Shown piece by piece: positions 1 to 43,200 of a DNA stretch of 64,000 nt. The number at the start of each line of letters is the position of its first letter. Positions within the stretch are counted from its first letter, which is position 1. A program made the translations under genes and the position numbers. The notes under the pieces were generated by a model that made no database searches, was not told the DNA's origin, and was given only the letters and a program-made list of their open reading frames with translations. Source of the DNA: a virus; IMG/VR virus record IMGVR_UViG_3300020370_000003, positions 17,399 to 81,398 of that record. The stretch is one strand, 5' to 3'.

Positions 1-136
1 CGTAAATTTCAATGCTTTCTACAACTAGGTTTTCCATAAACTTCTGCTCTTGAGCAGAACCATTAATGTTTAATCTAGCAGAATTAGTATAGTCAGACTG
101 TACATAATCCTGTGCTGGTGTATTTGAATATGCCAT
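1..136 (-). CDS. gp14: Neck protein gp14 (N-terminal part, runs off window)
   Basis: ATG at 136 directly after the gp13 stop; translates MAYSNTPAQDYVQSDYTNSARLNINGSAQEQKFMENLVVESIEIY, the EQ..MENLVVESI.IY motif of the T4-like gp14 N-terminus; gp13-gp14 synteny. Confidence 0.85.
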   Translation of the reverse strand, partial: MAYSNTPAQDYVQSDYTNSARLNINGSAQEQKFMENLVVESIEIY

Positions 137-137
137 A

Positions 138-944
138 TTAACCTATTAAATCTATAGGTGGAAGTTCATAACGATCACGGAGTTCTTTCTCCATGTCTTG
201 TTTAAACGTAGATGCATCTTCTAAGATCTGACGACCATTAAGTGTAACTCCACCTAACATTTGTATGCCATCATACTTACTTAAGTTACGACCCCACTGT
301 TGTTGGAAAAGTGCTTCCACATAATCTTTTAACCAGTTATCATTATAAATTCCTGTATTTGTTTCTGGGTCTTGACGCATAGTGCAATCAACCATAATAT
401 AATCACCAGTAGTAATATCATCCCAATCAAAATCAAGACTTAACTTACCACCATGTTCATTCCATTTAATTCTACGATTTTGTTGAGAATTAGTTACCCA
501 ATCTAAAGTCTCAAGATACTGAGAAGTCATATAATAATGTAATATCTGACCATGAGTCATAGCATAGATATCATTCAAAAAGATCTGATACTTAATATTG
601 AATATGTTACCAGGAACTATACTAGATGCACCAATGTTTGTGTACACATGATTGATACCTAGCATTCCAGGTGGTGTAGAAACATAGTTATTAACACCAT
701 ACCAAGCAGTAGAACCTTGTTGAGTTTCTGATTTTGCAGCAGTTTTAATTGCATCAGTAACTTCTATCTTCATCCAAGCTTGATAGCTTCCATTATAATG
801 ATACTCTTGATAGTAATCAATTGCTTCTTCAACTAAATCATCCAATTGCTCAGTGGCAACGTTGATATCTATCGTAGGATATCCTAACCTGCGAAGAGCA
901 TAATCCTTCAATTCAGTTTTAGTTGCTGGTCTTGTAGCTGACAT
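138..944 (-). CDS. gp13: Neck protein gp13 (head-tail adaptor)
   Basis: ELKDYALRRLGYPTIDINV...QWGRNLSKYDGIQMLGGVTLNG motifs characteristic of T4 gp13. Confidence 0.95.
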   Translation of the reverse strand: MSATRPATKTELKDYALRRLGYPTIDINVATEQLDDLVEEAIDYYQEYHYNGSYQAWMKIEVTDAIKTAAKSETQQGSTAWYGVNNYVSTPPGMLGINHVYTNIGASSIVPGNIFNIKYQIFLNDIYAMTHGQILHYYMTSQYLETLDWVTNSQQNRRIKWNEHGGKLSLDFDWDDITTGDYIMVDCTMRQDPETNTGIYNDNWLKDYVEALFQQQWGRNLSKYDGIQMLGGVTLNGRQILEDASTFKQDMEKELRDRYELPPIDLIG

Positions 945-22239: not shown

Positions 22240-22247
22240 TATTTATG
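22240..22247 (-). promoter_or_regulatory. T4-type late promoter (CATAAATA)
   Basis: Overlaps the stop of the giant ORF, about 21 nt upstream of the next ATG. Confidence 0.7.
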
Positions 22248-25200
22248 GTGTTTCAGGGTCTACTAACTCTTCACCATATTGTGAAAGGTCAGGAGCAGTC
22301 CAATCATCAGGAACTGATGTCTCAACCTCAATATTAGGATTTTGATATCCAGTACCTTGGTTATTAATAACAACTCCACCGACACCAACTAGTGCGTTAA
22401 TATCTCCTTCAAAACCAGATATAGAGTCAACTCTAACATTTGGTCTGCTTGTGTATCCAGATCCACCTGAAGTAACCTGTACACTATTAATAAATCCTGA
22501 AGTTAAATTTGCCTGTGCTTGTGCGTTCTGTCCGAACACAGAACCAAGATAGTCAAATGTAATTAGAGAGTTTGAAGACTCAATAACAGCAACCTCTCTG
22601 TCTGATGTCTCACCTTGGATGTCAATAAAGTCACCAGGTTCGATAGGTGGAATAACTTCAGCAGCATCAACGTCTGCCTCAGAACCAACGTAGGAGAATC
22701 CAACAAATGTAGAACCTACACGAGGAATCTCAGAGAAAATGATACGTGAACCAACCAATTCAAAACCAACGCCTGGTTCCTGAATAACACCGTTAAGTGA
22801 AACGATGATATTATTCTCAGGTCTGATAGTTGTGGACTGAACACCATCCGTAAGCGTTAGTGAGTAGAATACATCATTACGCTTGAGGTTGAATGACTGA
22901 CGTAAGGAGTCAAACTCGAATGAGATATCATCCAACTGTCTCAACTTACCTACGTAGAATCCTGTAAATGATGCTCCTAAATCTGGTGGTTCTGTGAACT
23001 GAATAGAATCAGAGAACGCTGTATAAGCAGAAGACGCACCAGGTGGTTGAAGAATACCATTAACAAATATAAGAAGATGTCCAGCTGGATCTGGTAGGTA
23101 CTGAGTACCATTACCAGTAGAGAGTTTGAATGTAGTTTGAACTCCATCAAATCCCTTAAATGCTCTCTTAACACGTGCGAGAAGTGGAACTTTATTTACC
23201 ACGATTGCCTTATAATCATCAGCACTGATAATTGCATCCTTAGTAACAAATGTTCCTTTGATATTACTTAGATAAACTCTCTTAAGAGTACCGCTATCAC
23301 GTATATCCTGAATTAAAGCTGAACCAGCACCAGGTGTGACAACCCTTGTAGTTACAGATGCGTAACCAACTGGGAAGTTATTTCCAACTCCATAATCACC
23401 TACGAGATCTCCATTTGTAAGAGGTGTTCCTTGGAAATCAGCAACATATAAGAAGTTGTTATCTAGATCAACTTCAGAAATTATTGCATAATTATCAAAG
23501 TCCTGTATACCACCAACAACCTTATAAAGTCTACTACCAACAGTAAATTCATTCAATCCACTAATGACTGTAATACCCAAGCGTGTATATCCAGCAGATG
23601 CGATTCTATCACCAACTGATATATCAAAACCATCAAACTTATTAACTTCAATATATTGTCTAGAAACTTCAGGATAAACAACAGAAGTTGTTTCAAATGA
23701 ACCTAATAGAGTTTCAGTATCAACTGTTAAAGTACCACCTGTATTATCAAGTACAGCAGCTTCTGTACGTATAAATTCGGTTGGAGTAGCAGTTGCACCA
23801 CTAGTGTATGCCTTAAATGGAACCGATGCCTCAAATGTACCCTTAAGGTCTATAATTTGAAGACGATCTGTAATTACACTAATCTGTCCTGTTGGTGGTA
23901 ATTGTGCTCTATCAGATTCAACTATATCAAGAGCTGCAAATGTACCAGCACTCATTATCACATCTACGTATCTGTAGTTCTCATCTTCCCATAATCCATG
24001 AACAGTTCCATTTACAGCATTATCAGATACCTTTCTAATAGTTTCACCTATCCAGAATGGTCCATCTGTTATCTCAGCATCAAATCGTAATCTCTGATAG
24101 ATGTTAACAATCTCACCTTCATTAACAGTCATAGTTTCTAATTCTGCATATGCACCACTATTAAATCCATACAAGTAATCAGAATCATTTAATCCACCAC
24201 CTAAACCAATTGGTACTTCTCTAGTTCCATATGTGTAGGTAGGCATACTAATACCATTGTTAACAGTGATATTAGTGTAGAATGTATCTAAACCTAGTTG
24301 TCCTTTTAGAATATCTAAGTTACTTCTGATACATCTAGTTACTGACTTATCGTTATAGTATGCAGAAGAGTTAGCATCAAAGTACTTAATATAACTTGCA
24401 GCAGGTGAAGGTGATGTGAGTGTATCACTTATTGCCTGACTTGCATAAGTTTCTAAAGCACTTAAAGCATAGGTCTTAACATTGTACTCAGTATCTGCGT
24501 AGAATATTTCACCAAGTTGAGAAGTGTATGGGTCAATAGTACCAACAGATAATTTAGCACCCCACATAAACATACCACTTGCACCATCACCCAAGTATGA
24601 TAAAGAATTAGTAGTATCATACATTAAGAATTGAGCACGTAATTCACTAAATCCAAAGGATATAGTTGTTGTAATATATGCTCTATACCATCCATTACCA
24701 TAAGGTACTGAACCATATGCATCACCACTTATACCACCTTGAGGTTGGAATAATGTTCCAGCAGTTCCTGTAGCAAGATCTAAGTCAAAGAATACATCTT
24801 GCTGACCAACTGTACCAGCATCCATAACAAGACCGAATCTAACTTTATTAAATTCATCTCCTTTAAAGAATACTGAGAATGTATATTGCTGATTATCATC
24901 ATCAGTAGCTGCTCCACCTTCGTCAAAACTATTGTTAGTATCATCAAACTTAATAGTTCCATCATCCCACGTATCATAAGATGTTAAACTATAGTTTCTA
25001 CTAGTATAGTGATAACCATTACTCTGATAAGCAATTAATTTTTCTGCAGTTTGTGTACCATCTGGTGCTTGTGCAAAATCATCACTAATAACAATATAAC
25101 CAGGAAGCCAATTAAATCTTATTTGCTCTGGATTTGAGAATAAGTTAGGTGCAGATACCTGACCTTGGATATTAGATTGTATATTCTTAGCAAAAGCAAT

Positions 25201-28200
25201 AGTTCTAACATTTGCTGGTTTGTTAAACCAAGTATATGGATAACCAACTCCACCCACTTTAACATTTGCTACAACACCAGAACGTGTTCCTTCTAGTCTA
25301 TCGTTTGCTTCCCAAGGAGAACCATACCATTTTCCAACAACTAAGAAACTACCTTCACTCTTATATTCAAGAACTACAGCAGATCCACCACCAGCTCTTT
25401 GACTGAATATCATCTCACCAACTTCAAAAGCACCAGTAACATTTTCAATTTCAATATTATGTGCTACTACTGTATCAGTAATATCAGTTGTAATTAAATC
25501 ATGTACTAAATTAGTAACAATGGTATTGAGCCAATCATCATACAACCAAACAGAAGAACCGAACTGCTGTGCTACAAGAGTTGTAATCTCTTCTTTATAG
25601 TAACTCTGGTTATAAAGTAAGTTCTTAGCAGCACCTCTCATTGCCAACTTACCAGGAGCAAGTATATTAAGAGCAATATCAACCAATTCTTTAAACCTAG
25701 TAACAACTGGGCTCATATCAACTGGTGTTAATCCATCTCTATATGCTTCTATAGTAGTATAGTTAAAGTTATATGCTGGAGGAACCTCATTAGAATCTTT
25801 AGTGTACAACCTATTAAGAATTGCATGCTCACCTAACCACTTCATCTGCTCAATAGCATATGTTGTTGCTAATAACTCATCTTCGATGAAGTTAATTTGC
25901 ATTGTAGTGGATAGATAATTTTCCATTGCAGCAATAGTGCTATTATTTCCACCTGTTTGTAAGTCAGAAATAATACCCAACATAATAAGAGATAGGTCAC
26001 GTTGACATGTTTGAACACCACCTGGTTCTGGATATAAGAATGCATTGTAGTAAGGACCACCTTCTGCTAATTGGAATTGGAATTCATTACTTACTAATGT
26101 TGTTATTTCATCAGCAATTGATTTTCTATTAAAGTATAATCTATCAGCAGATATTGCAAAGTCATTATTTGTAGGAGCAATGATATCATTAGCAGTTTCA
26201 ACTAAACTATCAATTGCTTCCTTAACATCAGCACAATCACCAGGAGAGACTATTCCAGCAGCAACTGCACTTACAAATGTATGTGCTTGAACATTAGTTG
26301 TAGCACCAACATTAAGTGTAATTGTTGTTGCATCAGCAGCAAGGATTTCCAAATTGCTACCAGACGCAGGGTCAGTTGATCTTGGATATGCAGCCTGAGA
26401 TGATGTAACTGCACTAACGTTAACTGTAATTGTTGTACCAGTTACAGCACTAATTGCTAGAACACCATTATTCATATCTGACGTATTAGTAGACGCAGGG
26501 TCAGTAGGACGTGGATATGGATGATTAGAAGAATGATTATCAGCATCACAAGTAAATGTAATTCCAAAATCAGCAATACTAATTGTATTACTTGTAGTCA
26601 AACTATGTGATCCAATTTCTAATTCTAAATTACCATTTGAAGGATTATATGTTGTTCCTGTTGCTGCAGTAAATGGTCCACCAGAGTCTGCAGTAATGGC
26701 ATCAGTAACACCACTTACAAAAGTATGAGTTCCTGTACCACCAGCACAACTGAATGTTAAAGAAGCATTTGCGACATTAACATATCTTCCAACTTCAAGA
26801 CTATGAGTTCCGATAGTTGCAACAAGAATACCAGTTGCAGGATCATAAGTTGCTGATGAAGCTGTAAATGTAGATGATGTTGATTGTGTAATACCCCAAT
26901 CACCAACTATAATTTTATCAGTATTATCATAAGTTAAATTACCAGTTATCGCTTGCTTCATGTAATGTGCAAGACGTAAATGTGCATATGCAGATTGGAA
27001 TAACTGTAAGCGAATATGTAAGATTACATCATTAGCACCAAGATATCTCCTAGCAACGTTAACTGTATTAAAGTTACCACCTTGTCTAAGGTCTTTAATA
27101 AATTCGGTAAGAATTAATGCTAAGTCAGTCTTACACTGTAAAGTACCATTTCCACTACCATCAGCATTTCTAGGCATATCCAGAACAAGATCTGGATATA
27201 AAGTCAACATATCATAAGATGCTTTATCTACAATAGGACCAGCATTTGCTTCTACTAGATCTGCAGCATCTTGGAATCTATACTTACCATTACTACCAAT
27301 TTGATTTGCATATATTATATCATCAGTAGAATTGTGTAATGAAACTGGGAATGTTTCTTCCAAATATGCATATACACGTCCACCAAGGAATTCATTATTT
27401 GGATCTGAAGATAATTTTGATACAGAACCAAGATGATCTATAGGTGATGGATTATTAGCATCTTCTAAAGTATCAGTAACTATATCAATTAAGTTTTCTA
27501 CAGTTGCTTGAACATCTACACAATCACCTACACTATAATCCATAACAGTAACACAATTAGTTTCTGCAGAAACAAAAGAATGCTTAGTTAAGAGCTTCTT
27601 AACTGCACCAGGGTCAGCACTTGAGAATGTGTGAGCACTTGCTGGTTGATAAGAAACATTATTGCTACTTGCATTACCAGTAAATGTATGTGCATAATCA
27701 CCACCAGTTACAACTGCTGCTCTCTTAATACAGTTAGTTGCATATGTTTTACCAGCTACGAATGTATGTGTAGTAACGTTAGTAGAAGGTGATATATCTA
27801 AAACTTGAACTTGGAAGGTATATGATGTCAATCCTGTAGATAGAACCTTCAACCACTTACCACTTGCAGGGTCAGTTGCTCTTGGATATCTGTGCTCAGT
27901 AGCATTACCGTCCTTAGTACATGTAAATGTTAATGAATTATCATCAAACTTAATATACTCACCTGCATCCATATTATGAACAACATTAGTTGTAACAGTC
28001 ATTATTCCTGTCCAACCACTATATGTTATTCCAGTTGGTGTGTACTTATCATATACTGTATAGAAAGCATGTTCTGTGGTATTACTAATAGCACCATTAG
28101 ATATATTAACAGTAACAGAAGTTGAAGTTGTGGCAGTAATAGGATGAGATTTATTATAACCCCAGTCACTTGTACGAGGATAGTAGTGAATAGTATTACC

Positions 28201-31200
28201 ACCATCTTGAGCACAAATAAATCCAAATGATTGTTTAGCAATTTTAATACCATCACCAACCTCAAGTTCATGAGCACCAATATCAATGGTCAACATTCCA
28301 GTAGTAGGATCATATGCTGTTGTTGAACCAGCTGCTAATGAAGGATTGTATCCTTTGATAGGAGACTTACCAACATTAACCTTAATCATACCATTCTGTG
28401 CTCTAACACCATTAGTTGCAGCACTTAAGAAAGCATGAGTAGAAGTATCTGAAGATATTCCTACATTAACATCAAATGTATCATTAGTCTTATTTGAAAT
28501 AGCTAACCATCTTCCACTTGAAGGGTCAGTTGCTCTTGGATACTTATGGTCCGATGTATATCCATCTAGGTTACATCTAAAAGTTAATGACTCATCAACA
28601 AGTTGGATGTAATCTCCATTATTAAGTCCATGAGCAGTCAATGTAATTGTCATTACACCTGTTGAAGGAACAAATGCAGCGTTACTAGCAGTACCTGAAC
28701 TATAATATACGTCAGTTACAGGAATTGATTTCTCAGCACCATAAGGATCTGTTGCACGTGGATATGTCTTAGTGGCAGTATTGCCATCCATATCACAAGT
28801 GAACTGTAAAGTATTATTCTGTATAACAATACTAGAACCTTTACGCATTCCATGTTGACCAATCGTTAAAGTCATATCACCTGTTGATGCATCGTAAGTA
28901 GCAGCAGATGGTGTAAATGTCTGATTAGTTCCAGGTGTACCTACATTAACTGTTATTGAAGTAGCATCTGTAGCAATAACTGGCAATTCTTTACCAGAAG
29001 TACGAACATCATGTCCAGGTCTAGGATAAGATTTAATGGACTGGTTATTGTCCATTGTACATGTAAATCTAATTGACTCATCTTCAATGATTACGAAATC
29101 ATCAGTTGTAATATCATGAGCAAGAAGGTTTATCTGTAAATTACCATTACTTGTATCGTATGTTGCAGTATCTGGATTGTATGGTTTATAATTTTTATTG
29201 AATGAAGTAGGACCAACATTAACAGTAAATGAGTTTGTATCAAACTTAGTAATTGGTAATACTTGCTTAGATGAAGGATCTGTAGTACGTGGATACGTAT
29301 GATTTGAAGCTCTATCATCATATTCACATGTCATGGTCAATCCATGATCATCAATAGCAATTGCTCTACCTTTCTTCTTAAAGCATCCACCCTTAGCACC
29401 TGTAAGAGTATGTGTATAAGCACCACCAGTTCTAATTACAGCACGAGTTAATCCATTTGTTACAGCAGATTGGAATTGGTGAGTGGTAGTATTAGAAGAA
29501 GTACCGACATTAACAACAAAGGTATCTTTAGTAACACTAGATACTTCCAAATATGTGTCGCTAGCTGGGTCAGAAGAACGTGGATATGTATGATCAGTCT
29601 GATAGTTATCTTGTAAACAACGGAATGTTATTGAACCATCGTCAAATTTAACCATGTCTCCATTTTCAAATCCATGATTAGGAACTGTTACAGTCATTAA
29701 ACCAGTTCCAGGAGTAAATGCAGCAGTAGTTATAGTGAACTTCTCACCACCAGTAACAAATTCATGTGTATAATCACCACCAACAGTAAATGCTTTATCT
29801 ACTGTTAGTCCACCCTTCCAAACGTGAGTATATTGTCCACCACACTTAATAGCATCTGCACTAGCAGATTGGAATACGTGAGTTGAAGTATTTGAAGATA
29901 TACCAACATCAACTGTAATTACACCAGTTGGTCTCTGCATACTGTTTGCAACAAAGTTTACAAAGGTATGAGTTGATGTATCACTAGACTTACCAATAAA
30001 GACATCAAATGTATTTGTCAGAACATTATCTAATGGTAACCACTCAAAGTAAGATGGGTCTGTACGTCTTGGATATGAATGGTTTGTAGCATCATCGTCT
30101 TTAGCACAAGTGAATGTTACTGCATTTTCGTCTAATCTAACCTTATCATTTGCCTTAATTAACCCATTAGCAACTGCTGATACCCATACGTGAGTTGTAT
30201 TATTAGAAATAGGTTGATCACCAAATGCACTTCCAACAGTCATACTGAAATCGTTAGCACTTGTGCGAAGAATTGGGAAGAATCTTCCACTAGCAAAATC
30301 ACTAGGTCTTGGATATGAATGGTTGGTAGAATTACCATCTTCAGCACAAGTAAAGACTAAAGAGTTATTAGCAATCTTAACCATGTCACCAGTTACAAAT
30401 CCATGATTAGCAGATGTTACAAATAGTTCACCTGTTGCTGGATTAAATGATGTACCACTTTCTGCAGTCTTTGTAGTTGGAGCAGTTAATCCATGACCAT
30501 CCATAGTTATGGTCATCATACCTGTAGTTGGATTATATGCTGCATCAGTTGGAGTATGAGTTGTAGTCTTAACATCCTGAACATAAGTTGCAGTATTGTA
30601 TGCATAGTCAGCACCACCAGGAGCATTAGAACCAGATGCACGAGGATATGTCTTATCTGTTGTCTGACCATCAAGATCGCAACGGAATGTTAATGAATCT
30701 TGCTCGATGTATACAGAATCACCAGCTCTTGTAATACCATTTTGAACACAACTTACAAATGTGTGAGTATAATCACCACCAGTAATTACAGCACCTGATA
30801 AAGATGAATGATAGTTATGAGTACCAGCATGACTAATTGCCGTATCTGGTGCTTCGTTAACGTTTACCGTAATGGTTGTTGCATCCTTAGCAGTAATATT
30901 CAATGAAGTATTGTATGCATAGTCTTGATTATCACTTGTATTAGCACCATATGATCTTGGATATGACTTCTGAGTAGAGAATCCATCTCCACCATAATCA
31001 CAAACAAATGTGATTGAATTATCTTTTAATCTTATACTAGTTCCAACTGAAAGACTATGTGTACCAATGGTAAGTACTAAGTCTCCAGATACAGGATCGT
31101 AGCTAGCATTAGAAACATCAAAGTCTAATTGTGGTGAAGTTCCTACGTTAACATCAAATGTATTATCAGTAACGTTAGAAATTAGCATCCACTCCCCAGA

Positions 31201-34200
31201 CTTAGGGTCAGTAGATCTTGGATAAGTATGCTCACTACCGTGTTGGTCTAATGAACATGTTAATGATATTGCATTATCAGCAACCTTAACCTTATCCCCT
31301 ATCATGAATCCATGATTAGGAATTGTAAGTGTCATTACACCAGTTGATGCAATGTAATTTACATCAGTTGCTGTATGAGTGGTAGAATCCTTAATCCAAT
31401 GATTACCAATAGTCAAGTCCATAATACCTGTCTCAGGTACATAGACAGCAGCAGAAGGTGTATATGCTGAGAACTTACTCTTACCAACATTAACAGTAAA
31501 GGCATTATTATTCTGCCTAATACCGTCAGCTAATCCAGAAACGAAGCTGTGTGTATAAGCACCAAATATAGTTCTACCAACAAATACATCAAATGTAGTG
31601 TTAGTTGAAGCTTCTACAACACTCCATCCTCTTCTAAACACTGGGTCAGTCTTACGAGGATATGCATGGTTTGTAGCATTACCATCTTTAGTACAACTAA
31701 AGGTAATAGCACCTTCTTCAAATCTAACTAACTCACCAGCAACTTTCATGCAAGGGTTAGTAGTTACACCAACACATGTATGCTCACTAAGGTCTTGAGA
31801 CTTACCAATAAACAAATCAAATGTATTATCAGTTCTATTCTGTGCAGGTAACCATTCATCTCTTGCAGGGTCACCTGAGCGTGGGTAGAAGTGGTCTGTT
31901 GTCTCATCATCCAATCCACAACGGAATATAAATGCACCATCATTAAGTCTAACAAGGTTACCATTGTATACCTGATGACCAGATGATGTAATAGTTAACA
32001 TTCCAGTAGCAGGGTCATAAGCAGCACCAGTACAATTTCTAGTACTTGGTGGGCTTAATAATGCACCGCAAGTAACAGTCATCATACCTGTTAATGGGTT
32101 GTATGATGCATCAGTTGCAGTCCTATTAATTTCAGAAATATTAGTAACTTCAACAGCAGTACCACGAGCAGGGTCAGTTAATCTTGGATATGCATGATCG
32201 GTTGCTTGACCGTCCATATTACATGCAAAGAGGAATGCCCCATCTCTAAGTCTAATGCTATCACCAACCATTAAATTCATATTTCCACCTAATCCAGGAG
32301 AACCAGGAGCAGAAGTGGTAATTACTAATGCACCAGTTACAGGAGTATAGTTTGCACTAGAAACATCGTATGCAATATTATGTGTCTTACCAACATCTAA
32401 AGTAATTGTATTATCCTTATGAATAATACCATTAGGATCTGCAGACTTAAATGTATGTAATGAAAGGTCAGTAGATATACCAACATTTACATCAAATGTA
32501 TTAGTAGTTACATTAACAATCTTATGTAACCTACCGCTAGTTGGGTCTGTAGAACGTGGATATCTATGTTGAGTTATGTTGTTGTCCAACAAGCACTCAA
32601 ATGTAAGTGAATCATCAGCAATACGAACTTTATCACCATGAGCAAATCCATGACTAAACACTGTAATTGTTAGTAAACCTGTTTCTGGTGTGTATGATGC
32701 ACCATTTGCAGTATGAGTAGTTCCTTCATATAGAATAGGAACACTATCCTGATAAATGAAATCATTCGCTCTTGGATATTTCTTAACAGACTGCAATCCA
32801 TCCATAGTACATCTGAATGGAAGACTACCTGTAGCAACCTTAATATTTGTACCAGCTCTCAATCTATGCTCACCAATAGTCATCTTAAGAAGACCTGTTG
32901 AACCACTGTATGTTGCAGCAGTAGGATTGAAAATTACGTCTGGTGTTTTACCAACATCAACTTGGAAAGTTGTTGAGTCAACAACAACAACATCTAACCA
33001 ACCTTGACTTGCATGGTCAGAAGCTCTTGGATACTTATGCTCAGACCTATTCTGATCCATAGTACAAGTAAATGTTAGAGACTCATCTTCAATTTGAAGT
33101 TTAGAACCTGCTGTAAGATTATGAGCACTACCAGTTGTACATGTAAGCATACCAGTAACAGGGTTATATCCACCACCATTAATTGATAATGATGTTTCAC
33201 TAAACAAACCATGTGATGCTTTTAATATTTTTAATTCGCCAGTTGCAGCATTATATTCTGCTCCTGAAGGTGTGAATTTAGATGCTGCATTACCACTAGA
33301 CTCTGTAATACTAGTATCAAATTTCTGCTTGTGTCCATGATGACCTTGAACATCCCAAGCATCATTGGTTATGATATATCTTAAAATTTGATTTAATTTA
33401 CCATATGTCCAAACAGTTTCTACAATTTCATTTTCAACGTTGAGTAATTTAACATTGTTTATATCTTCTCTGTCAACATAGTATGATGCAGCAGTCCAAA
33501 TCTTTTCATTACTACCATTACGTAAATCAGATGCAATAGACTTACAAATATCTTTAACATCATCTTGACAATTTACACTACCATTAATGACAGTGAAATC
33601 TGGGAATTTCTGTTCTAATAGATATACTGCCTCTTGAGCAATGAAGTCTAAGTTGGATTCAATCAATGTAGCAGCATTGTAATACCTGTTAGTATTTCCA
33701 ACAAAACCTCTAGAAACTGCTCTACCAACATTAACTGTAATTGTAGTACCAGTTACTGAATCAATTGTTAATGCTACTCCATGTGCAGGGTCAGTTGGTC
33801 TTGGATATCTATGCTCAGTTGTATGATTATCTTTATCACAAGTGAATGGTAACTTATCAGTACCAATAGTTACAGTATTAGATGTTGTAAAACTATGAGA
33901 TCCAATAGTCAATACTAAAACACCAGTCTCACCATTATACGTTGCATCAGTAACATCCTTTATAGTTCCATCGTTAAATGTAAGAGCAGCGTTTGAAGTA
34001 CCAGCTACAAATGTATGGTCACCAACATAACGAACAGTAGAAATTATAGCATCGTTATTGAAATATTCTCCCTTTGTGAATGACTCAGAACCAGACCAAT
34101 CTTGTACCCATTGCTGACCATCTTTACCATCAAAGTGAAGTAACATCTTAGTAGCACTATCACCTTGGAATATTCCAGCTAAAGGTGTAAATGCAGCTGC

Positions 34201-37200
34201 ATATCTGACAGTATTAGAGATTCTTACCTCATCAATATGACCGATAAATCCAGTTCCAAATGCATAACCAACACCAATAAACAGTGGTTTAGCAGTATAA
34301 GTTGTGTTATCAGTTCCAGTACCAACCTCAACACCATCAATATACATCTTACCAGATGTACCTGTTCTAGTGTAAGCAACATGAGCCCATGTATCAGCAG
34401 TTAGAGATGTTCCAACAGAAGTTACAAGATCTGCATTATTAACATTCCAACGAACTTGACCACTTTCGAGATATACTCTCAATGCAACTTCATTAGCACT
34501 TGAAACTCTTGTATCAAAAACATCGATAGTTCCACTTAATGAAGAAGAATCAGGACGTATATAGAATTCAAAAGTAAAGTCACCACTACTAAATGCAATT
34601 TCATTAGTTGTTTGACACCAGATATAATCTGTTGTTCCAGCAGTTAATTGTAATGAAGCAGCACCATACTTTTTCTGTGCGGTATCAATCTGAGCACTAC
34701 CAGCAAAAGTAAAATCAAAATAGTCTTCACCATTAGACTTAGTTCTACCAATCTTACCAAGATATACTGTATTACGTGCTTGGTTATATCCAATAACTTC
34801 AGCCTTAGTATCTCTAGATCTTATAACTTGACCAGAACTAAAGAATCCAGTTCCTTCTCTATCATAGAAGGACATCTTTCTAACTTTACCAGTTTCACCA
34901 GTTACAAATTCATTAGTATTATTACCATATTCAATCTTATAATTACGAATATTTTCATTAAGTTGTAACGTTCCTGTTAAATTATTAAATGGAACAATAT
35001 AATTATTAATCTGTTCATTAGCTGGGAAGTTACCATTATAAGGAGTTAGATTATCGGTAGCATCAACAATACTTACTGCAGATGATGCAATATCATCTAA
35101 AACAACATTTGGATAAGTCTGAGATGTAATTCTGTTGAATAATAATCCAAAGAATGAAGAACCAGGAGAGATATCAACCTGACCAATAAATTCTTGAGTT
35201 ATAGGATCTTGATAAGCAGATGTTGAAGTAATTCGTGCTATAACACCAGACTGTGCTCCATAGATAACATCATTCAACTGAATATCAAATAATCCAGGTG
35301 TTGATGTATATGTACCTGCAGTCTTACTTAAAGTTAGTTGATCAGTAACCTCAATTTTAGTACTATAAAGTGGAGTATTATCTTGCTGATTCGCTGCAGT
35401 TGTACCAAGAACATTTCTTACAACTGTAAGTGATGTGGATTCTGCATTATCTACAGTGCCTACAAGAGTAAAGATTTCAGATCCTACTTGATAATTAACA
35501 TTAGCAACAAATGTTCCTACAGGTACTGGTTGGTCAGTAGATGCAGTTGGGTCAATAACTTCAAATACAGTTGTAGAAGGACCAATAGAATACCTTAATT
35601 TAGCAATAGGCATCTCTTGTCCAGTTTCTAAGTTAACTGCTTCAACCTTTGCAGTATTACCTTCTAGGTTTGTAATATTTTCACCAAAAGTAAATAGTCC
35701 GATACTTCCAACTGGAGTTATAGATGCTAAGTTTCCAGCAAATCCTGTTGCTACAACGTTACATAATTCACCAAGTATAAAACTACCATCAGTTATATAA
35801 CCAGTAACTACATTACCAACTACTTTCAATACAGTAAATCTAGCATCAGTAGAACTACCCTTAATCTCATTACCAAGACCAGGATAAATTCCACTAGGAT
35901 TATTGAATGTCATTTCATATCCTTGAATAGCATCAATGGTAACAGAAGCATATTTAACACTTGCTGGTGGTCTTGGTGGTTCATTGAATACTATAGAATC
36001 CTGTTGGATTGTAAATGCTGTCTCTGGGTTTTGTACAACACCATTCAAGACAACCATTAACTGATTTGCGTTAGCAACAACAGTACCACCATTAACTGTT
36101 AATGGGAATGAAGTCTTAATACCATCAAACTGGTCTGATATATCATCAACTCTCTGTACAACAGAAGTTAGAATGTTCTCAGAAGATGTCAATCTCTTCT
36201 GTCTGAATAGTACTTCTGTATTATTAAACTCAGTATAAATTGGATCTACAAGAGCAAAGTTTTGAATATTTGGAACAATTGCTTCTTGAGCAAGTTCTAC
36301 AGACTTAGTAAGTTCAAAGAAAGTATCTTTATTAGGAATCTCTCCATACTCATTCAAGTTCAACTCACCAAACACCTTAAACGATGCAGGGTGAACGTTT
36401 CTGATTAGAATTTCTTTCCACTCACTGATAGAAACAGCAGACTTAACAGCATAAGAGAAGTCCTGATAGTAGTAAGAGTCTTGAATCTTTTGAATAATTT
36501 CAGATGGTTTACCAACATCATCAATAAACTGACCAGTAGTCTTAGTTATAGAACCAATATCTAGAACACCACGAGCAAACTTAAGGTCACTAATAGTACC
36601 AGAAGACTTAGAAATAACACCAGTTATTTGTTCACCTTCTGAAAATACACCATCATAATTAACAATCTTAAGAATTCTAGGTCCAATCTGCCAACCAGAG
36701 TTGGTTGAAACATATCCTTGTGCTGTTGATGTCTCTAATGAATCACCCTGATAAACAAGTTCACCTTCAAGGAAGGTAGAAGTAATAACATTAGCAGTAG
36801 CAGCACCACCAAATGATTCAGTTAAGATACTCTGACGACCATCACCAGCGTTAACAAATGATAATGCATCACCCAATTCTGCGTTTTGAGGAGTAATAGC
36901 GATCTTTAATTGATCATCTTCTAGAGAGTTTGCACTACCAGAAATTGCATAATAAGTAGTATTTGGATTAAGACGACCTGTTGCACCAGCAGCTAGAGGA
37001 TAATCAGCACCATCTCCAGTATCTGTTACAGCAACACTAATTTCAGCACCATTAGTAATACCATGTGGATAAGCAAACTGTAATAAACCTAAGTCAAGGT
37101 TAACAACATAGTTAAATGAAGACCTAAGACTTACAGAAGGAGTGGAAGAATATCCAGCACCTGGGTCTTTAACTTCAACAATATCCAATCTACCATTCTT

Positions 37201-40200
37201 AATAGTTGCTTCAGCAGTTGCTCCAGATCCACCACCACCTGTAATAACAACAGTAGGTGCTAATGAATATCCAGAACCTGGATTAGTAACAGTAATACTT
37301 TCAAGAATACTTGTAGAAGTTAACTGAGCATTAAGTGGGAATGTAATCTCAGGACGTAAAGTATAGTCATGAGGATAATCATAACCAAAGTTATTATTCT
37401 TAAGTTTCTTAATCTTACCAACCTTATCACCCTTAGTGAAGATAGATGCTTCAGTACCGAAAGGTGGAATAACAACTGATAAATCTGCACCAGATCCAGT
37501 TAAACCAGCACCAAGAATACCAGAAACACCTTCAACGTCAATTGTAGCAGAAGTGTATCCTTTACCTGGAGATGTGACAAGAACTTCTTGAATCTGACCT
37601 GGAATGGTTATACCTTCATCATCTTGTCCATCTGCAACAGTAATTTGAACAAATCCACCTTCACCATCACCAGCAATAGGTACACCATTATATGTTCCTA
37701 CAGCATATTCAGTTCCTGGTTCAATAATTTGAACTCTTTCAATCTTTCTTGTAGATGCGATACCAGTAACAATAGGTAACTTAGTATAGAAACCACCTGG
37801 ATTAATGATACGGATATCTCCAATAGAACCAACTGCTTTTAATGAACTTGTAGTATATGAAGTTCTTGAAATATCACCAATACCTTCTGGCTCATTTAAT
37901 AATGGGAATTTAAATACATCAGCACCACGAGTAATTGTTTGACCAGAAGTACTGCTAATTGTAAATGTACCAGTATAAGGTGAATCTGTTACATCAAGAT
38001 AACTATCAGAAATTACAGGAGAATCAGCACCAGTTCTAGAAGGATCGAAATAGTAGGAAATATTAGTAACTATATCACTATCAACTTTCAACTTAACTGA
38101 TGGATTTGGTTCTCCTTGACCAGTTAAACCAGGAGTTCCAATTCTTTCAATAGAGTTGAATGAATATTCCAACTTATAAAGATTATCCTTAGCAAAAGAT
38201 AAATTACCACCAACAAGTGTAGAATGAGCTAAATCAAAGATATACTGATGTCCATAGTACATCTTTAGAGTTGGAGACTTAACAAATATACCAACACTAG
38301 CAGCATTAGTTGCAGGAGCAGTTATAGCAGTTTGTGGTAATTTGTAAGTAAATTCAAGTGGACTTACAACAGTATCAACAGCAAATGCACCATCATACTC
38401 ATCGTAAACAAGACCACCATCTGTTTGTGATGGGTTACCATCAACATAAACAATTTCACCTTCAGACAAGTAATGACTTGTTCCTGTAATTACATAAACT
38501 TCATCACTATTAGCAACAGCAGTTATTTGAAGTATTCTTTCTAGATTAGAAATCAATGTAATCTTAGTAACACCTATTAAATTTGTTATCTCACATGTAT
38601 TGTAATTAGCATTGAAAGATATATCGCTAGATGTAAGTGAAACTACAGATCCAACAATAAACGATGAACTACCACCAATTTCATCAATTCTAACTGAATA
38701 GTCACCTACATTAAATGGTTTAAATCTAGCAAAGTCATCTAAGTTATTAGTACCACCAATATTAGCAGGAGCATCATAAGTGGACATATCAATATCAAAT
38801 GTTCCAGGAGTTGTATTGTTTACCTGTGCGAAGGTATATGCCTTCATTTCATTAACATCATTTGGAATAGGACCAACTATTCCATAAGTATCTTGTTCAT
38901 TAAATTGCTCACTAACTAAAATACCAGTGTTTAAATCATTAGTCCAAGGATTATTCTGAACAGCAACATAAATTTTTCTGTTAGGTATATCAGATTTAAT
39001 GATATATCCACTATTAATAAAGTTACCATTAGAAAGATTATTAAGTCTTAACTTAGAACCAGTAGTAAATATGAACGGTTGATTTATAGTTAACTCTTGA
39101 ATATTATCAATTTTAACTGTATTAGTAACCTTAAAGAAATATCTATCCTTAACTACAGCAGATACTTGTAATTTTTGAGAACCTGGAGAAGGAACAGTCG
39201 CTGTTCTAGAACTCCAAATATCATTAGTATAAGTTAATGTCTCTGTACCTGGAGTCATTGTTATAGTAGCATCATCAAAGTCTAAAGTTTGTAGACCTGC
39301 ATCACCTAACGCAAAATCAGCTTCACCTATTGTCATTGAAGATCCAGTAACAGGAGTTACAGAAGTTCTGACAAATCCTAATTGAGTATTAGTTTGTACA
39401 CCTTTATCACCCAATCTAGTAGAATCAGCATTCTTATCTACTTTTAAATTCCATCCATTATGGTCAATATAATCATACTTGGTTAAATTATTAGTAAACC
39501 AAGCAGTGTCTGTCCAAGCAAATCCTAATGCAAATGATGCAACAGGAGGTAAACTCGAAATATCAGAAGGTACAGTTACAGTAACTGCTCTATTTCTCAA
39601 TCTAATATTATCAATGAAGAATTGACCTTGATAATTTTGACTGAAATCTGTAGCACCAGCACCAAAACCAACCTGGTTACCAAAGTACAAGTCCTTAGTA
39701 GCAAAAGAAGTATTTGATAATGTACCTGTTATTACTTCTATACCATTAACAAATGCTTTAAATACATTACCTTCTTTCCTTACAGCAATGGTTTGCCAAC
39801 TATTGTCAGCATACATTGTTGTTTGTGTGGATGATTGTCCAGAACCATTAATTAACTGAGTTGTTTGATTGGTAATAACCATCTGCAACTCACCAGAGGA
39901 ATTATCATATCCTAACCATAGTCCACCAGTAGCATCTCTAGCACCACCGATACCCATTATAGTTTGGACATTTTGTGATAAAGTCTGAGATTGTGACCCA
40001 GATTTGTATATAAAGAACTCTAAAGTCCAATCATTTGCTAATGTTGTACCTAAATCAGATCCAGCAACCTTAAGATAAGAATTTTCCCATGTAGAACTAG
40101 ACCCAGCTGGTTGATAACCATAGATCTTTGCCATATTATCATCATAAGTTATAGCATTACTTGCTCCAACTGAAGTTAAAGTATAGTTGCTAGTTAGATC

Positions 40201-43200
40201 TGTTTGCTCATTAGCAGCAAAATCGAATATAAACTCATTCCTATTCCATTGAGTTTGACCAGAAAGGTAAACATCACCAGAATTATCAGTATTAACTGAA
40301 TGAACGGTTATACCTTCAATACGGTTTTTATTAAATTCATTAGTTGTATGATTCTTAATAATACCATTATATCCAATCTTAACTGAATCTACAGTTTTAA
40401 CACCAGTTGTAGTATTGTCTCTACTAAATGCAACGTTTAAATCTCCAAATATATCGATAGAACTCCTATCTGCCATAGTGATATCTCTACCAGGAGCAAC
40501 ATAACGATAATTCCAAATTATATCACCAGTTCTACTAACTTTACAAACCCAAAAACTATCTTTCTGTGTAGGATCAGACTTAAATCTTAATGAACAAGAA
40601 ATATAACACTCATTAAATTCGTCAAAGACAAGACTACCATCAACTAATGAATATACAGATGTACTATACTCTTTAATAAAGTCTATATTAATTGCACTTG
40701 TAGTTAAAGTTGCTTTACCAAATGCAAGATTAACATCGGTAGTAGATTGATTTAACCCTACTTCCATTAAGAAGTATAATTCTGTAGCTCCTGAAGTAGT
40801 CGTTATGACCTTCATATCTACAATCTTTTCAGATTTACTAGTAGATACAAGCTTTCTCTTAATAGCAAAATTACCAGTACTATCAATAGATGCTAAGAAT
40901 GCATCATATGGGTTACTGGAATTTGTATTAGTATAACCACCAATAATGAAACGAGTATCACTCCATTTTTGAATTGAAGTTACATAGTCAGCACGAGTAG
41001 CACCAGAGATACCAGCATATCCTTTTTGGAACTGTAATCCAGCACTCAATCCATTTTCTGTCTGAGTATACTTAGCAAGTATAACATCTGGATTATATGC
41101 ATTAAGTAGATTAGAATTTGGCTTATTATTACCAACCACCCAAACATCAAGACCATCTACATAAAGTTTTTGAAACTCTGTATAGTATTGTCCATCAGTA
41201 CTCTCTAGAGTATTCTCCCACTCTTTAACACCTGTAGCAGATAATTTAGCAACAAAACCTACTGAATTTCCAACAGCATCTTTTGTTTTACCACAAATAA
41301 AGATCTCTTTATTATCACTAACGTAAGTATCATTAATTTTAACATAATTCTGATTTCCAATTTTAGAAAGATAATAATCCGCTTTCTTAAAGACCTGTGG
41401 ATGAGATAATATAACACGAGGATTAGATGTATATCCAGAACCAGAATTTAAAATATTAACTTGATCAATAGCACCAACAGTTGATACAACTGCTTCTAAT
41501 TTTCCAGAAGTACCATCACCATCAATTGTAATAGTTGGTGGAATATCTGTATTGTATCCAGAACCTCTTTGGTCAATAACAATCTCTTCTATACCTTTAT
41601 ATTGACGAACTACAAACGTTTTGTTTGTATTCTGCATTATAGGAGTATAATCTATATAAACAACATCACCAGCAATTAGATTATGAGGATCTGCTGTCTG
41701 TAAGACACCATAATTAGCACCACTAATATTCTCAAAATCATATGCAGCAACTGCTTCACCCTTGATTTTTGAAATACGAGCAGATACACCAGCTCCATCA
41801 GTATCGGTATTATCAAATATTAATCTATCATCTACCTGATAATTCTTACCTGTGTTCTCAACAGTAAATCCAGTAACAGAAGCATCTTCAAATTTAGTTG
41901 TTGTTTCAACTTCAATATCAACTTTAGAGTCAAATTTAACTTTAGGGAAGTAATCAAATAACTGTAAAGGTGACTCCTCAAACATTTGATCGGGGTCAGC
42001 AGTCTCTTCTGGACCTATAATTCCATCTCTATTTTCATCCTCTACTTCAAACAACAAGATCTCACCATCTTCAGTTGTTAAAGCAGCAGTAGAAGCATTA
42101 GGAACCCTTTCAACATCAATATCAACATTCTCATAAGGGTCTCTATAACGTACAACTCCAGTTGGTATATTCTGCTGAATTGCATTTGCACTAAGGTTCC
42201 ATTCATCAACAACAGAGTTGAAACTTGGTCCTATAACATATGGGAAAAGTGGACTACCTGCATCAGTAGCATCAATAGTAACGAAATAAGCATAAGCACC
42301 ATTAGGGAAGTCAGGAGTCTTACAAAAACGACCATTATACTGGTCTAAGTCACCTAATCCAAAACTATACTCATAGTCTTCTACAAAATTACCAGCAGGT
42401 TCTTCTGTTAATAATGGACCAGCAGTTCTATTTGGAGTTGGATTAATAGTATCATCATAAATTAATTCATCCTTTAATTTGTAAGAAGTTCTAAGTCTTA
42501 CGGTAGCAGAACTTTGGTCAGTAGGATCAACGTATCCATAAGGACCGTAAATTGGATTACCATCAAATGCCCAACCGATAATTGGAGAGTGAGATAACTG
42601 CTCTTCTTGTTCTAGAATATTTCCTGTGCCAATTTCTTCATAAAGGTTATCACCAAGGATATACCTCATCTTTTGAGGGTTTGAAAGGTGAGCATACTCA
42701 CCACCATACTCATTATTGTAACCAGTAAATACAGAACCTTTAGCAGTATCAAACTGTGAAGTTGCTTGAAGGTTATAATTCCATTGGAATACATTTGCAG
42801 TAAAAGTAGCATTTTGACCAACGGAAGTCAAATTAATAATAGTACTACCTTGGATGTAGTTAATACCTTTGTTAACAATCTCAATATTGGTAACCCTACC
42901 AGCATTTTCACCGTCTGTGTCAATAGTTGCTCTTGCAATTGCACCAAATCCAACACCTTGAACAGATACTTCAGGTGCAGTAGTATATCCAGATCCAGCA
43001 GAAATGATAGCAATAGATATAATTCTACCATCATTAACAATTGCTTGTGCAACAGCACCTTTACCAGAACTTAGTGTTACTGTTGGACTTGAAGTGTATT
43101 GAACACCACCATTAGTAATACCAATAGACTGAATAGGTCCACGAACAGATGCAGTACCAGCAGCACCATTTCCACCACCACCAACAATAGTAATAAGTGG

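What the first reader, a model, noticed from the sequence alone, without database searches (positions are those of the whole stretch)
27544..33283. Recursively nested (matryoshka) domain tree: 18 copies of one domain inserted into each other's loops, 7 levels deep
Seen in the translation: the repeat unit has four ordered segments, A (.TPT.A.Y.P.TG.L.LT...HGL), B (GD.I.I.D.SLTF.C..D.....H.YPR.TDP), C (..L.I..V/T.TF.VNVG) and D (S....HTFVSA..NGI). The copies are not tandem. New copies open after A, in mid-C, after C, or in mid-D, and the missing segments reappear later in last-in-first-out order. Manual parse: 1[2[3[4][5[6[7]][8[9[10]][11[12]]]][13]]][14[15[16][17[18]]]], with all 18 A, B, C and D segments accounted for. 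Orphan closing strands stack consecutively at about 29750-29885 (THVFQSA / THVWKGG / THEFVTG) and 27544-27705 (AHTFTGN / AHTFSSA / KHSFVSA). Segments A and B of domain 1 are about 1,280 aa apart. Inference: one polypeptide folds into a branched, dendritic appendage on the baseplate, built by repeated insertion of a domain-coding cassette into permissive loops. I do not know of a described protein with this depth of branching self-insertion.
Basis: partly seen in the sequence, partly recalled or inferred. Interest (0 to 1): 0.92.

Follow-up and report, generated by a model that had tools for sequence, protein, structure and literature searches.

The report
Nested beta-barrel tree in cyanophage gp7
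A giant baseplate protein of a T4-like cyanophage carries 18 copies of one small beta-barrel domain inserted inside one another seven levels deep, which appears deeper than the six levels reported for cyanobacterial RNA polymerase in a recent large survey of domain insertions.

Summary
The region is aa 4531-6443 of an 8,209-aa ORF on the minus strand (window 22243-46872). This ORF sits at the gp7 position, between gp6 and gp9/10, of a T4-like cyanomyovirus. Segment HMMs find exactly 18 A and 18 B pieces and no extras. With the C and D pieces, the 72 tokens parse as a perfectly balanced bracket string, depth 7, against 0 of 200,000 shuffles.

Two AlphaFold2 models (pLDDT 94 and 84) and structural alignments indicate that distant pieces close single barrels. 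A deliberately orphaned closing strand stays disordered.

Phage S-SSM5 is 71% identical upstream of the tree. At the same loop it has one contiguous A-B-C-D barrel where this phage has the 1,912-aa tree. P-RSM4 has a four-barrel nested tree at a different loop.

I found no mid-D insertion site. Some relatives reach 26 barrels and depth 9.

Recursive self-insertion is already described for cyanobacterial RNA polymerase Si3 (six levels). This is therefore a new, more extreme member of a known kind, in a different fold and setting. Function is inferred only.

The parts
22243..46872 (-). Giant ORF of 8,209 aa, a gp7-position baseplate wedge protein. It contains a Baseplate_wedge match (aa 684-729), a YHYH domain (aa 1360-1536), a LamG domain (aa 4086-4224), helical modules and the barrel tree.
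   Evidence: synteny with S-SSM5 and P-RSM4
27547..33282 (-). Domain 1, the root, whose span equals the whole tree (aa 4531-6442). Pieces: A 33205-33282, B 29275-29373, C 29212-29274, D 27547-27591. It encloses domain 2 (inserted after A) and domain 14 (inserted between C and D).
   Evidence: Orthologous contiguous barrel in S-SSM5. A1 and B1 co-map to one split domain in P0007 and P0012.
29383..33195 (-). Domain 2. Pieces: A 33115-33195, B 33016-33111, C 32950-33012, D 29383-29421. It hosts domains 3 and 13 between C and D.
   Evidence: D2 is assigned by motif only (GGAY-THTL)
29746..32931 (-). Domain 3. Pieces: A 32866-32931, B 32758-32862, C1 32722-32757, C2 32389-32418, D 29746-29775. It hosts domain 4 in mid-C and domain 5 between C and D.
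   Evidence: D3 is assigned by motif only (GGDY-THEF)
32422..32721 (-). Domain 4, a contiguous leaf barrel (aa 4718-4817).
   Evidence: 158 bits, full length
29794..32364 (-). Domain 5. Pieces: A 32308-32364, B 32170-32271, C1 32122-32169, C2 31483-31512, D 29794-29835. It hosts domain 6 in mid-C and domain 8 between C and D.
31516..32121 (-). Domain 6. Pieces: A 32062-32121, BCD 31516-31740. It is split after A by domain 7.
   Evidence: AF2 pLDDT 94.3, pTM 0.85. PDB barrels align over model range 1..213. A BFVD homologue has TM 0.91.
31741..32031 (-). Domain 7, a contiguous leaf barrel (aa 4948-5044).
   Evidence: model residues 30-133; Z 7.6-7.7 to E1 FCCH and the phi92 endosialidase barrel
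29845..31470 (-). Domain 8. Pieces: A 31399-31470, B 30634-30726, C1 30568-30633, C2 29902-29928, D 29845-29895. It hosts domain 9 after A and domain 11 in mid-C.
   Evidence: Its A and B both best-match one contiguous domain of P0012.
30730..31383 (-). Domain 9. Pieces: ABC 31141-31383, D 30730-30774. It hosts domain 10 between C and D.
30781..31116 (-). Domain 10, a contiguous leaf barrel at depth 7 (aa 5253-5364).
29941..30564 (-). Domain 11. Pieces: A 30487-30564, BCD 29941-30156. It is split after A by domain 12.
   Evidence: Its A and B both best-match one contiguous domain in P0009 and P0014.
30157..30474 (-). Domain 12, a contiguous leaf barrel at depth 7 (aa 5467-5572).
   Evidence: 146 bits
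29446..29745 (-). Domain 13, a contiguous leaf barrel (aa 5710-5809).
   Evidence: 162 bits
27598..29181 (-). Domain 14. Pieces: ABC 28939-29181, D 27598-27639. It hosts domain 15 between C and D.
   Evidence: AF2. At least 12 single PDB barrels align over model range 1..535-537.
27667..28920 (-). Domain 15. Pieces: AB 28744-28920, C1 28702-28743, C2 28369-28395, D 27667-27699. It hosts domain 16 in mid-C, and domains 17 and 18 between C and D.
   Evidence: AF2. VIA rows span model range 89..514. The sub-tree is conserved at 51-57% identity in six orthologues.
28402..28701 (-). Domain 16, a contiguous leaf barrel (aa 6058-6157).
   Evidence: model residues 163-265; Z 8.6 to E1 FCCH 4p22_B; Z 8.4 to the phi92 endosialidase barrel 4hiz_A
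28048..28326 (-). Domain 17, a contiguous leaf barrel (aa 6183-6275).
   Evidence: D17 strand E374-378
27724..28050 (-). Domain 18, a contiguous leaf barrel (aa 6275-6383).
   Evidence: model range 378..492
33283..33690 (-). N-terminal part of the helical module whose loop carries the tree (aa 4395-4530).
26893..27543 (-). C-terminal continuation of that helical module (aa 6444-6660).

Best explanation
The region encodes one branched tree of 18 homologous beta-barrel domains of about 100 aa each. The fold resembles the E1 FCCH domain, the phage endosialidase barrel and FAD-binding barrels. The tree lies inside the gp7-like baseplate wedge protein of a T4-like cyanomyovirus.

Each barrel is built from four interdigitating segments, A to D. 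The first strand pairs with the end of the last segment, so the N and C termini are adjacent. That geometry lets a complete copy sit in a surface loop of another copy.

Three loops accept copies: after the A hairpin, at the tip of the C1-C2 hairpin, and between C and D. Repeated duplication and insertion at these loops produced a single tree, seven levels deep, rooted in a loop of a helical module. The host barrels are completed only when their later segments emerge, up to about 1,900 residues downstream.

Shown in silico: the balanced order of the segments, the discontinuous barrels in two AF2 models, and the empty-site and other-site states in related phages.

Inferred, not shown: the tree is a stiff, doubly tethered, branched surface appendage of the baseplate. 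With six gp7 copies per virion, as in T4, that would be about 108 barrels. It may take part in contact with the host surface.
For: Segment grammar:
- The region holds 18 A and 18 B HMM hits and no extras.
- The 72-token string is fully balanced at depth 7, against 0 of 200,000 shuffles of either kind.

Covariation:
- An analysis of 456 contiguous copies couples A with B, C2 and D, and couples D with A strand 1 and B (for example pairs 6-100, 36-101, 20-35, 23-75, 46-88). All four segments therefore belong to one barrel.

AF2 model of aa 4913-5125 (domain 6 holding domain 7):
- pLDDT 94.3 and pTM 0.85.
- Most PDB barrels align to model residues 30-133. Three align 68-82 residues across the range 1..213; one of them matches a contiguous 76-residue stretch (8vjh_D), the other two chain ranges of about 220 residues.
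- A BFVD model of a homologue matches the whole module at TM 0.91.

AF2 model of aa 5895-6443:
- pLDDT 83.5 and pTM 0.68.
- The only stretch below pLDDT 50 is residues 533-549, which is the deliberately orphaned D1. D15 and D14 are strands.
- At least 12 single barrels align 67-95 residues over 1..535-537 (domain 14). Two align over 89..514 (domain 15). Leaves align at 163-265 and 378-492.

Evolution:
- S-SSM5 SSSM5_094 is 71% identical over aa 3-4103 and 55% over aa 6878-8207. It has one contiguous A-B-C-D barrel between the same helical flanks.
- P-RSM4 has that single barrel plus a four-barrel nested tree at another loop.
- There are 144 A[ABCD]B modules with regular spacing in the 121 proteins, that is the query, an identical fragment P0001 and 119 homologues.
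- 27 homologues parse cleanly from HMM tokens alone, at depths 4-9.

Baseplate context. The S-SSM5 orthologue group, T4-GC969, is an experimentally identified virion structural protein (PMC3037559).
Against: - There is no experimental structure.
- I could not see model coordinates or contact maps. Discontinuity is read from the first and last aligned residues in VIA-align rows.
- The closing strands D15 and D14 have only moderate confidence (pLDDT about 60-68).
- The deep part of the tree (domains 1-5 and 8-13) was not folded, and AF2 jobs are exhausted.
- Seven short C2 and D tokens are motif calls without HMM support.
- A covariation-based test of which A pairs with which B was uninformative: 79 of 144.
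- Domain-by-domain orthology to the 35-38%-identical relatives is noisy.
- Nothing here tests function. Structural Z scores of 7.6-8.6 to known barrels are in the range the tool itself calls common.
Confidence: 0.87

Rival explanations
1. The region is a linear beads-on-a-string array. In this reading the orphan A hairpins, B-C-D pieces and D strands are degenerate partial repeats or linkers, and they do not complete distant barrels.
For: Partial repeats are common in fibre proteins. Seven C2 and D tokens are weak. The A-B covariation pairing test gave no signal.
Against: - Piece counts balance exactly and the order is last-in-first-out, against 0 of 200,000 shuffles.
- Covariation shows that A and D are integral strands of the barrel.
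- In the AF2 models, single PDB barrels span ranges 1..213, 1..535 and 89..514.
- Only the partnerless D1 is disordered.
- S-SSM5 has the root domain contiguous.
Confidence: 0.04
2. The sequence order is nested, but the stacked closing strands fold differently. They might be exchanged between barrels (first-in-first-out or domain-swapped), or they might form their own sheet. The object would then be a strand-swapped rod rather than a tree of autonomous barrels.
For: All D strands are homologous, so sequence alone cannot assign them. D15 and D14 are only moderately confident in the model. Stacked D strands share a GG-x-Y-T-H turn.
Against: - The VIA ranges end at residue 514 for domain 15 and at 535-537 for domain 14, which matches last-in-first-out.
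- The last D is disordered when its A-B-C partner is absent.
- First-in-first-out pairing would require crossing connections.
- D1 keeps the same 19-residue spacing to the helical flank as the single D of S-SSM5.
Confidence: 0.07
3. The pattern is an assembly or gene-calling artefact, in which mis-joined repeats create an apparent nested order.
For: Repeat-rich genes are prone to mis-assembly. I do not know the source of this window.
Against: - The frame is open for 8,209 aa.
- DNA copies are only 60-80% identical, too diverged to collapse or mis-join.
- Six metagenomic orthologues have the same token order in the domain-15 sub-tree at 51-57% identity.
- The cultured phage P-RSM4 has a nested tree of its own.
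Confidence: 0.01

Closest known systems
Si3 insertion of cyanobacterial RNA polymerase beta-prime (RpoC2): recursively nested sandwich-barrel hybrid motif domains
   Same: Homologous small beta domains are inserted into one another. Several are built from distant parts of the chain, and some nodes bifurcate. The architecture is reported as eight domains in six levels (PMC13114784). The crystal structure shows four discontinuous SBHMs (PMC10895346).
   Different: - The fold is different: no RNA polymerase or SBHM chain appears among the listed structural matches.
- The setting is different: a virion baseplate protein rather than the trigger loop of an enzyme.
- The tree here is larger and deeper: 18 domains at 7 levels, with relatives reaching 26 domains and depth 9.
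- At least three insertion loops are used per domain, and there are circular permutants.
- The size varies strongly between related phages, from 1 to 18 barrels at one loop.
Beta-barrel domain of phage endosialidases (phi92, PDB 4hiz; Pfam End_beta_barrel PF12195)
   Same: It is one of the best structural matches to the leaf barrel: Z 8.4, 81 residues, rmsd 2.3, and Z 7.7. From my own knowledge, it is itself a domain inserted into another domain of a phage host-recognition protein. There is a weak sequence hit, E 0.017.
   Different: The sequence match is below any curated threshold. The endosialidase has a single barrel and no self-nesting. The conserved C...YPR..D...H signature is specific to the cyanophage family.
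First catalytic cysteine half-domain (FCCH) of ubiquitin-activating enzyme E1 (PDB 4p22, 2v31; Pfam PF16190)
   Same: It is the top structural match: Z 8.6, 76 residues, rmsd 2.5. Pfam PF16190 is precomputed on several homologues. From my own knowledge, FCCH is also an inserted barrel.
   Different: In this window the Pfam hit scores 12.1 bits against a cut-off of 29.5. The biological context is unrelated, and FCCH is a single insertion.
Orthologous gp7-position giants of cultured cyanophages: S-SSM5 SSSM5_094 (6,171 aa) and P-RSM4 PRSM4_106 (6,603 aa), annotated as virion structural protein
   Same: They have the same gene position, about 71% identity over the first 4,100 aa and 54-55% over the last 1,330 aa. 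They share the same helical module and the same barrel family.
   Different: At the loop where this window has 18 nested barrels, they have one contiguous barrel. P-RSM4 instead carries a four-barrel tree at another loop. The pair of barrels at aa 6667-6875 is absent in S-SSM5.

Membership tests
Recursive (nested) domain-insertion architecture, as in RpoC2 Si3 | The repeated units are homologous domains. | tested here: met
   18 A and 18 B HMM hits, with decoys near zero. Leaf copies are 35-52% identical.
Recursive (nested) domain-insertion architecture, as in RpoC2 Si3 | Host domains are discontinuous: they fold from segments separated by a complete inserted domain. | tested here: met
   This was tested in silico only. 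AF2 models were combined with VIA ranges 1..213, 1..535-537 and 89..514. The orphan D1 strand is disordered. Coordinates were not visible to me.
Recursive (nested) domain-insertion architecture, as in RpoC2 Si3 | An inserted domain is itself a host, over several levels. | tested here: met
   The stack parse gives depth 7 with 0 violations. Three levels were folded. Levels 4-7 rest on segment order alone.
Recursive (nested) domain-insertion architecture, as in RpoC2 Si3 | The architecture is confirmed by an experimental structure. | not testable with these tools
   No PDB sequence relative was found. The only weak profile hit is iota-carbonic anhydrase.
T4 gp7-type baseplate wedge protein | The gene lies between gp6 and the gp8, gp9 and gp10 genes. 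| tested here: met
   gp6-like lies at 46878-48908, gp9/10-like at 20993-22219 and gp8 at 15264-16796. S-SSM5 and P-RSM4 have the same order.
T4 gp7-type baseplate wedge protein | Sequence match to the baseplate wedge family. | tested here: met
   PF23786 Baseplate_wedge scores 36.2 bits against a cut-off of 27, at aa 684-729, but only as a partial match to the profile.
T4 gp7-type baseplate wedge protein | The protein is present in the virion baseplate. | not testable with these tools
   The literature reports only that T4-GC969, the cluster of the S-SSM5 orthologue, is an experimentally identified virion structural protein (PMC3037559).
E1_FCCH (PF16190) and End_beta_barrel (PF12195) sequence families | Pfam gathering score is reached. 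| tested here: not met
   E1_FCCH scores 12.1 bits against 29.5. End_beta_barrel gives E 0.017 for one of six leaves. The likeness is at fold level only: Z 7.6-8.6.
Tandem-repeat fibre array (beads on a string) | Contiguous units with a regular period. | tested here: not met
   Only 8 of the 18 domains are contiguous. DNA copy spacing runs from 225 to 1,044 nt. Partial profile hits occur in bracket order.

The most novel reading that the evidence does not exclude
Self-insertion of this barrel is an ongoing, lineage-specific way of building and diversifying a baseplate appendage. Phages whose gp7 flanks are about 71% identical carry 1, 1+4 or 18 barrels, at different loops, and relatives reach 26 barrels and 9 levels. 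This would be the deepest natural recursive domain nesting known. The resulting doubly tethered, branched barrel tree would act as a multivalent host-surface contact organ whose topology, not just its sequence, evolves with host range.
Probability: 0.35. Interest if true: 0.82.

Novelty: new member of a known kind. Interest (0 to 1): 0.68.

Why it matters
If the models hold, this is a natural protein in which a domain cannot finish folding until about 1,900 further residues, forming 17 other domains, have been made. That makes it an extreme test case for co-translational folding and for domain-parsing software. Pfam sees nothing in the region.

The published maximum is six levels, found in a survey of 2.7 million domains. 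This protein and its relatives would extend that to 7-9 levels, in a different fold.

For phage biology, it explains much of the size of the unannotated 6-8 kaa virion structural proteins at the gp7 position of marine cyanomyoviruses. It also shows that these proteins differ between close relatives by whole sub-trees. Such differences are a plausible, testable substrate for host-range evolution in viruses that control Prochlorococcus and Synechococcus.

Tried and rejected
- Pfam on the region returned only a sub-threshold E1_FCCH hit. A sequence search of the PDB returned nothing. A leaf profile against the PDB returned only a weak, probably spurious iota-carbonic anhydrase match.
- Foldseek against the PDB gave no hit with E <= 0.001.
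- A covariation-energy test of whether the outer A prefers the outer B over the inner B was uninformative, 79 of 144. I place no weight on it.
- Best-match mapping of each domain to the 35-38%-identical orthologues is noisy. Only 5 of 28 split-domain tests co-mapped A and B, against about 1.6 expected by chance.
- Megablast of the region against phage records found only a 44-nt match.
- Pfam on the helical flanks found no family, including no phycobilisome-protein match.
I did not send that string again, and I re-ran the covariation analysis reading everything from files.
I had intended a three-piece test of A1 + B1C1 + D1, built on alignments A4 and A5. Nothing was folded.
Under that reading the last D would close domain 14, but it is the disordered one, and domain 14 ends at model residue 535-537.

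Full report
**What is there.** The coordinates lie inside a single 8,209-aa ORF on the minus strand, window 22243-46872. The finding corresponds to aa 4531-6443. Pfam finds nothing significant in this stretch. PHROGs matches tail fibre and virion structural protein families.

The ORF lies between a gp6-like gene and a gp9/10-like gene, followed by a YHYH protein and gp8. It carries a Baseplate_wedge (PF23786) match, a YHYH domain and a LamG domain. The gp6 neighbour is 72-73% identical to gp6 of Synechococcus phage S-SSM5 and of Prochlorococcus phage P-RSM4. In those phages the same position holds 6,171-aa and 6,603-aa proteins annotated as virion structural protein. The S-SSM5 protein belongs to cluster T4-GC969, which Sullivan et al. 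2010 list as an experimentally identified virion structural protein (PMC3037559). The gene is therefore the enlarged gp7-position baseplate protein of a T4-like cyanomyovirus.

**Checking the observation.** A profile built from five contiguous copies hits the giant protein in full-length and partial form. A-only hits lie at aa 4531, 4917, 5136 and 5437. Hits beginning at B lie at 5045, 5373, 5575 and 5833.

I then collected 120 giant homologues and extracted 467 contiguous copies. From these I built separate HMMs for A, B, C1, C2 and D and calibrated them on locally shuffled decoys. In the region these HMMs give exactly 18 A and 18 B hits, all well above decoy scores and with no extras. They also give 14 of 18 C2 strands and 15 of 18 D strands. 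The remaining seven pieces are short, diverged and recognisable only by motif.

The 72 ordered tokens parse under a stack grammar, in which each domain runs A then B then C2 then D and a new A may open at any time. The parse has no violations, nothing left open, a single root and a maximum depth of 7. None of 200,000 shuffles of the tokens parsed. None of 200,000 shuffles of the 33 contiguous pieces parsed. At the DNA level the copies are 60-80% identical with irregular spacing. This is therefore neither a tandem array nor a recent duplication.

**The tree.** My parse is 1[2[3[4][5[6[7]][8[9[10]][11[12]]]][13]][14[15[16][17][18]]]]. It differs in two respects:

- Domains 14-18 lie inside domain 1, between C1 and D1.
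- Domains 17 and 18 are siblings.

Insertions occur after A (4 cases), between the two C strands (4 cases) and between C and D (9 cases). I found no mid-D site.

**Is the nesting structural?** A covariation analysis of 456 unique contiguous copies (Meff 284) couples A with B, C2 and D, and couples D with the first A strand and with B. The four segments therefore interdigitate in one barrel, and the first and last strands are neighbours. That accounts for two things: a whole copy can sit in a loop, and circular permutants exist.

The module A[ABCD]BCD recurs 144 times in the 121 proteins (the query, its identical fragment P0001 and 119 homologues), with very regular spacing. I aligned 26 such modules and folded aa 4913-5125, which is domain 6 holding domain 7. 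The model has pLDDT 94.3 and pTM 0.85 and is all-beta.

- VIA-align places most PDB barrels on model residues 30-133, the inner domain. These include the phi92 endosialidase barrel, E1 FCCH, FAD-binding barrels, EF-Tu domain 2 and lambda gpJ.
- Three chains align 68-82 residues across the range 1..213. One is a contiguous 76-residue stretch of the phage Chi tail tip. This is expected only if the N-terminal hairpin and the C-terminal 80 residues form one barrel.
- A BFVD model of a cyanophage homologue superposes on the whole module at TM 0.91.

For the other two insertion types I folded aa 5895-6443, using six orthologues and 21 metagenomic fragments as the alignment. This construct holds domain 14 with 15[16][17][18] inside it. 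It also holds the D1 strand, deliberately left without its partner as an internal control. The result is pLDDT 83.5 and pTM 0.68.

- The only stretch below pLDDT 50 is residues 533-549, which is D1.
- D15 and D14 are modelled as strands, at moderate confidence.
- At least twelve single PDB barrels of about 100 residues align 67-95 residues over the range 1..535-537. That range equals A14-B14-C14 plus D14.
- Two align over 89..514, which is domain 15.
- Leaves align at 163-265 (Z 8.6 to E1 FCCH, Z 8.4 to the endosialidase barrel) and at 378-492.

This pattern fits last-in-first-out closure and my assignment of the last D to domain 1. I could not see coordinates, so these statements rest on alignment ranges, DSSP and pLDDT.

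**Evolutionary evidence.** S-SSM5's protein aligns at 71% identity with aa 3-4103 and at 55% with aa 6878-8207. Between the same helical flanks it has one contiguous A-B-C-D barrel (its aa 4531-4628). In the window protein, A1 abuts the N-terminal flank and D1 abuts the C-terminal flank. D1 has the same 19-residue spacing to the conserved G-D-C as the single D of S-SSM5. The difference in protein length, 2,038 aa, is almost exactly the extra 17 barrels plus a second pair of barrels at aa 6667-6875.

P-RSM4 also has the single barrel at this loop. It carries in addition a balanced four-barrel tree, 1'[2'][3'[4']], at a different loop of the same helical module.

Among metagenomic orthologues, the domain-15 sub-tree is conserved at 51-57% identity with the same token order, while other sub-trees differ. 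In some relatives, the A and B pieces of split domains 1, 8 and 11 both best-match a single domain, and that domain is contiguous for 8 and 11 (the signal is modest).

Twenty-seven homologues parse without any violation from HMM tokens alone. They hold 8-26 domains at depths 4-9. The barrel family is small: 699 clusters at 50% identity among 1.84 billion representatives. In all 150 listed representatives it occurs in more than one copy per protein.

**How it probably works.** Two things are shown in silico. The barrel has adjacent termini, and three loops tolerate a full copy. Two things are inferred. New copies arise by duplication of a cassette and its insertion into these loops, because tandem duplication alone cannot give this order. 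Each inserted barrel is held by two strands. The long paired strands at model residues 155-166 and 262-272, and at 2-5 and 206-209, look like such stalks. Two tethers would give a stiffer and branchable array than beads on a string.

By analogy with T4, six gp7 copies would display about 108 such barrels at the baseplate. A role in contact with the host surface is plausible for three reasons. Other proteins with this barrel are annotated as tail fibre or tail protein. A LamG domain lies next to the tree. The nearest structural relative is an endosialidase barrel. This role is untested.

**Comparison with what is known.** Recursive insertion of homologous domains is already described. The Si3 insertion of cyanobacterial RNA polymerase has discontinuous SBHM domains in its crystal structure (PMC10895346). 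A 2026 survey of 2.7 million domains reports it as eight domains in a six-level recursive architecture, singled out as the example of extreme complexity (PMC13114784).

The present case differs in fold, in setting, in size (18 domains, 7 levels, or 8 counting the helical host) and in variability between close relatives. I found no paper describing this architecture in cyanophage gp7. The search covers open-access literature only. I therefore class it as a new member of a known kind.

**Limits.** All structural evidence is predicted. Levels 4-7 rest on segment order alone. Seven short tokens are motif calls. 

Noticed in passing
window 33724-34026 (aa 4283-4383) and 26413-26736 (aa 6713-6820): Two circularly permuted copies of the barrel, ordered D-A-B-C. 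This fits adjacent N and C termini. The same permuted copy exists in S-SSM5 and P-RSM4 (token string DAB...).
   Followed up: partly
window 26248-26874 (aa 6667-6875): A further barrel appears to be split inside B, between ...SLTFSC and YPR, by the permuted copy. This would be a fourth insertion site. The whole two-barrel unit is absent from S-SSM5, where the alignment jumps from its aa 4850 to 4853.
   Followed up: partly
window 33283-33690 and 26893-27543 (aa 4395-4530 and 6444-6660): The tree sits in a loop of a helical module that recurs downstream (for example aa 6876 onward, with the motifs C.DV...I..L and DL..GGN). In P-RSM4 a second loop of the same module carries a separate tree. Pfam finds no family in these flanks, although PF00502 is precomputed on some homologues.
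   Followed up: partly
window 34027-34617 versus L001 (S-SSM5 protein aa 4078-4384): The order of the LamG domain and the permuted barrel is swapped between this protein (LamG, then barrel) and S-SSM5 and P-RSM4 (barrel, then LamG). One domain may be inserted in the other.
   Followed up: no
leaf barrels, e.g. window 28402-28701: Invariant positions across copies are a Cys in B, Y-P-R..D in B and a His in D. A His at the end of A is nearly invariant. This could be a metal or structural site assembled from segments that are far apart in split domains. It was not testable without coordinates.
   Followed up: no
alignment A3 (six leaf barrels): A profile of the leaves gives a weak three-fold repeated match (total E 1.5e-4) to iota-carbonic anhydrase 7c5x over profile positions 7-54. 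It is probably spurious but remains unexplained.
   Followed up: no
window 16832-20986 and 20993-22219: Downstream neighbours are a gp9/10-like connector (408 aa) and a 1,384-aa protein with YHYH matches. The order is the same in S-SSM5 and P-RSM4.
   Followed up: no
proteins P0137, P0140, P0144, P0150 and others: Complete genes of 640-750 aa on long contigs also consist of several of these barrels and carry a precomputed E1_FCCH hit. The barrel is therefore not confined to gp7-position giants.
   Followed up: no
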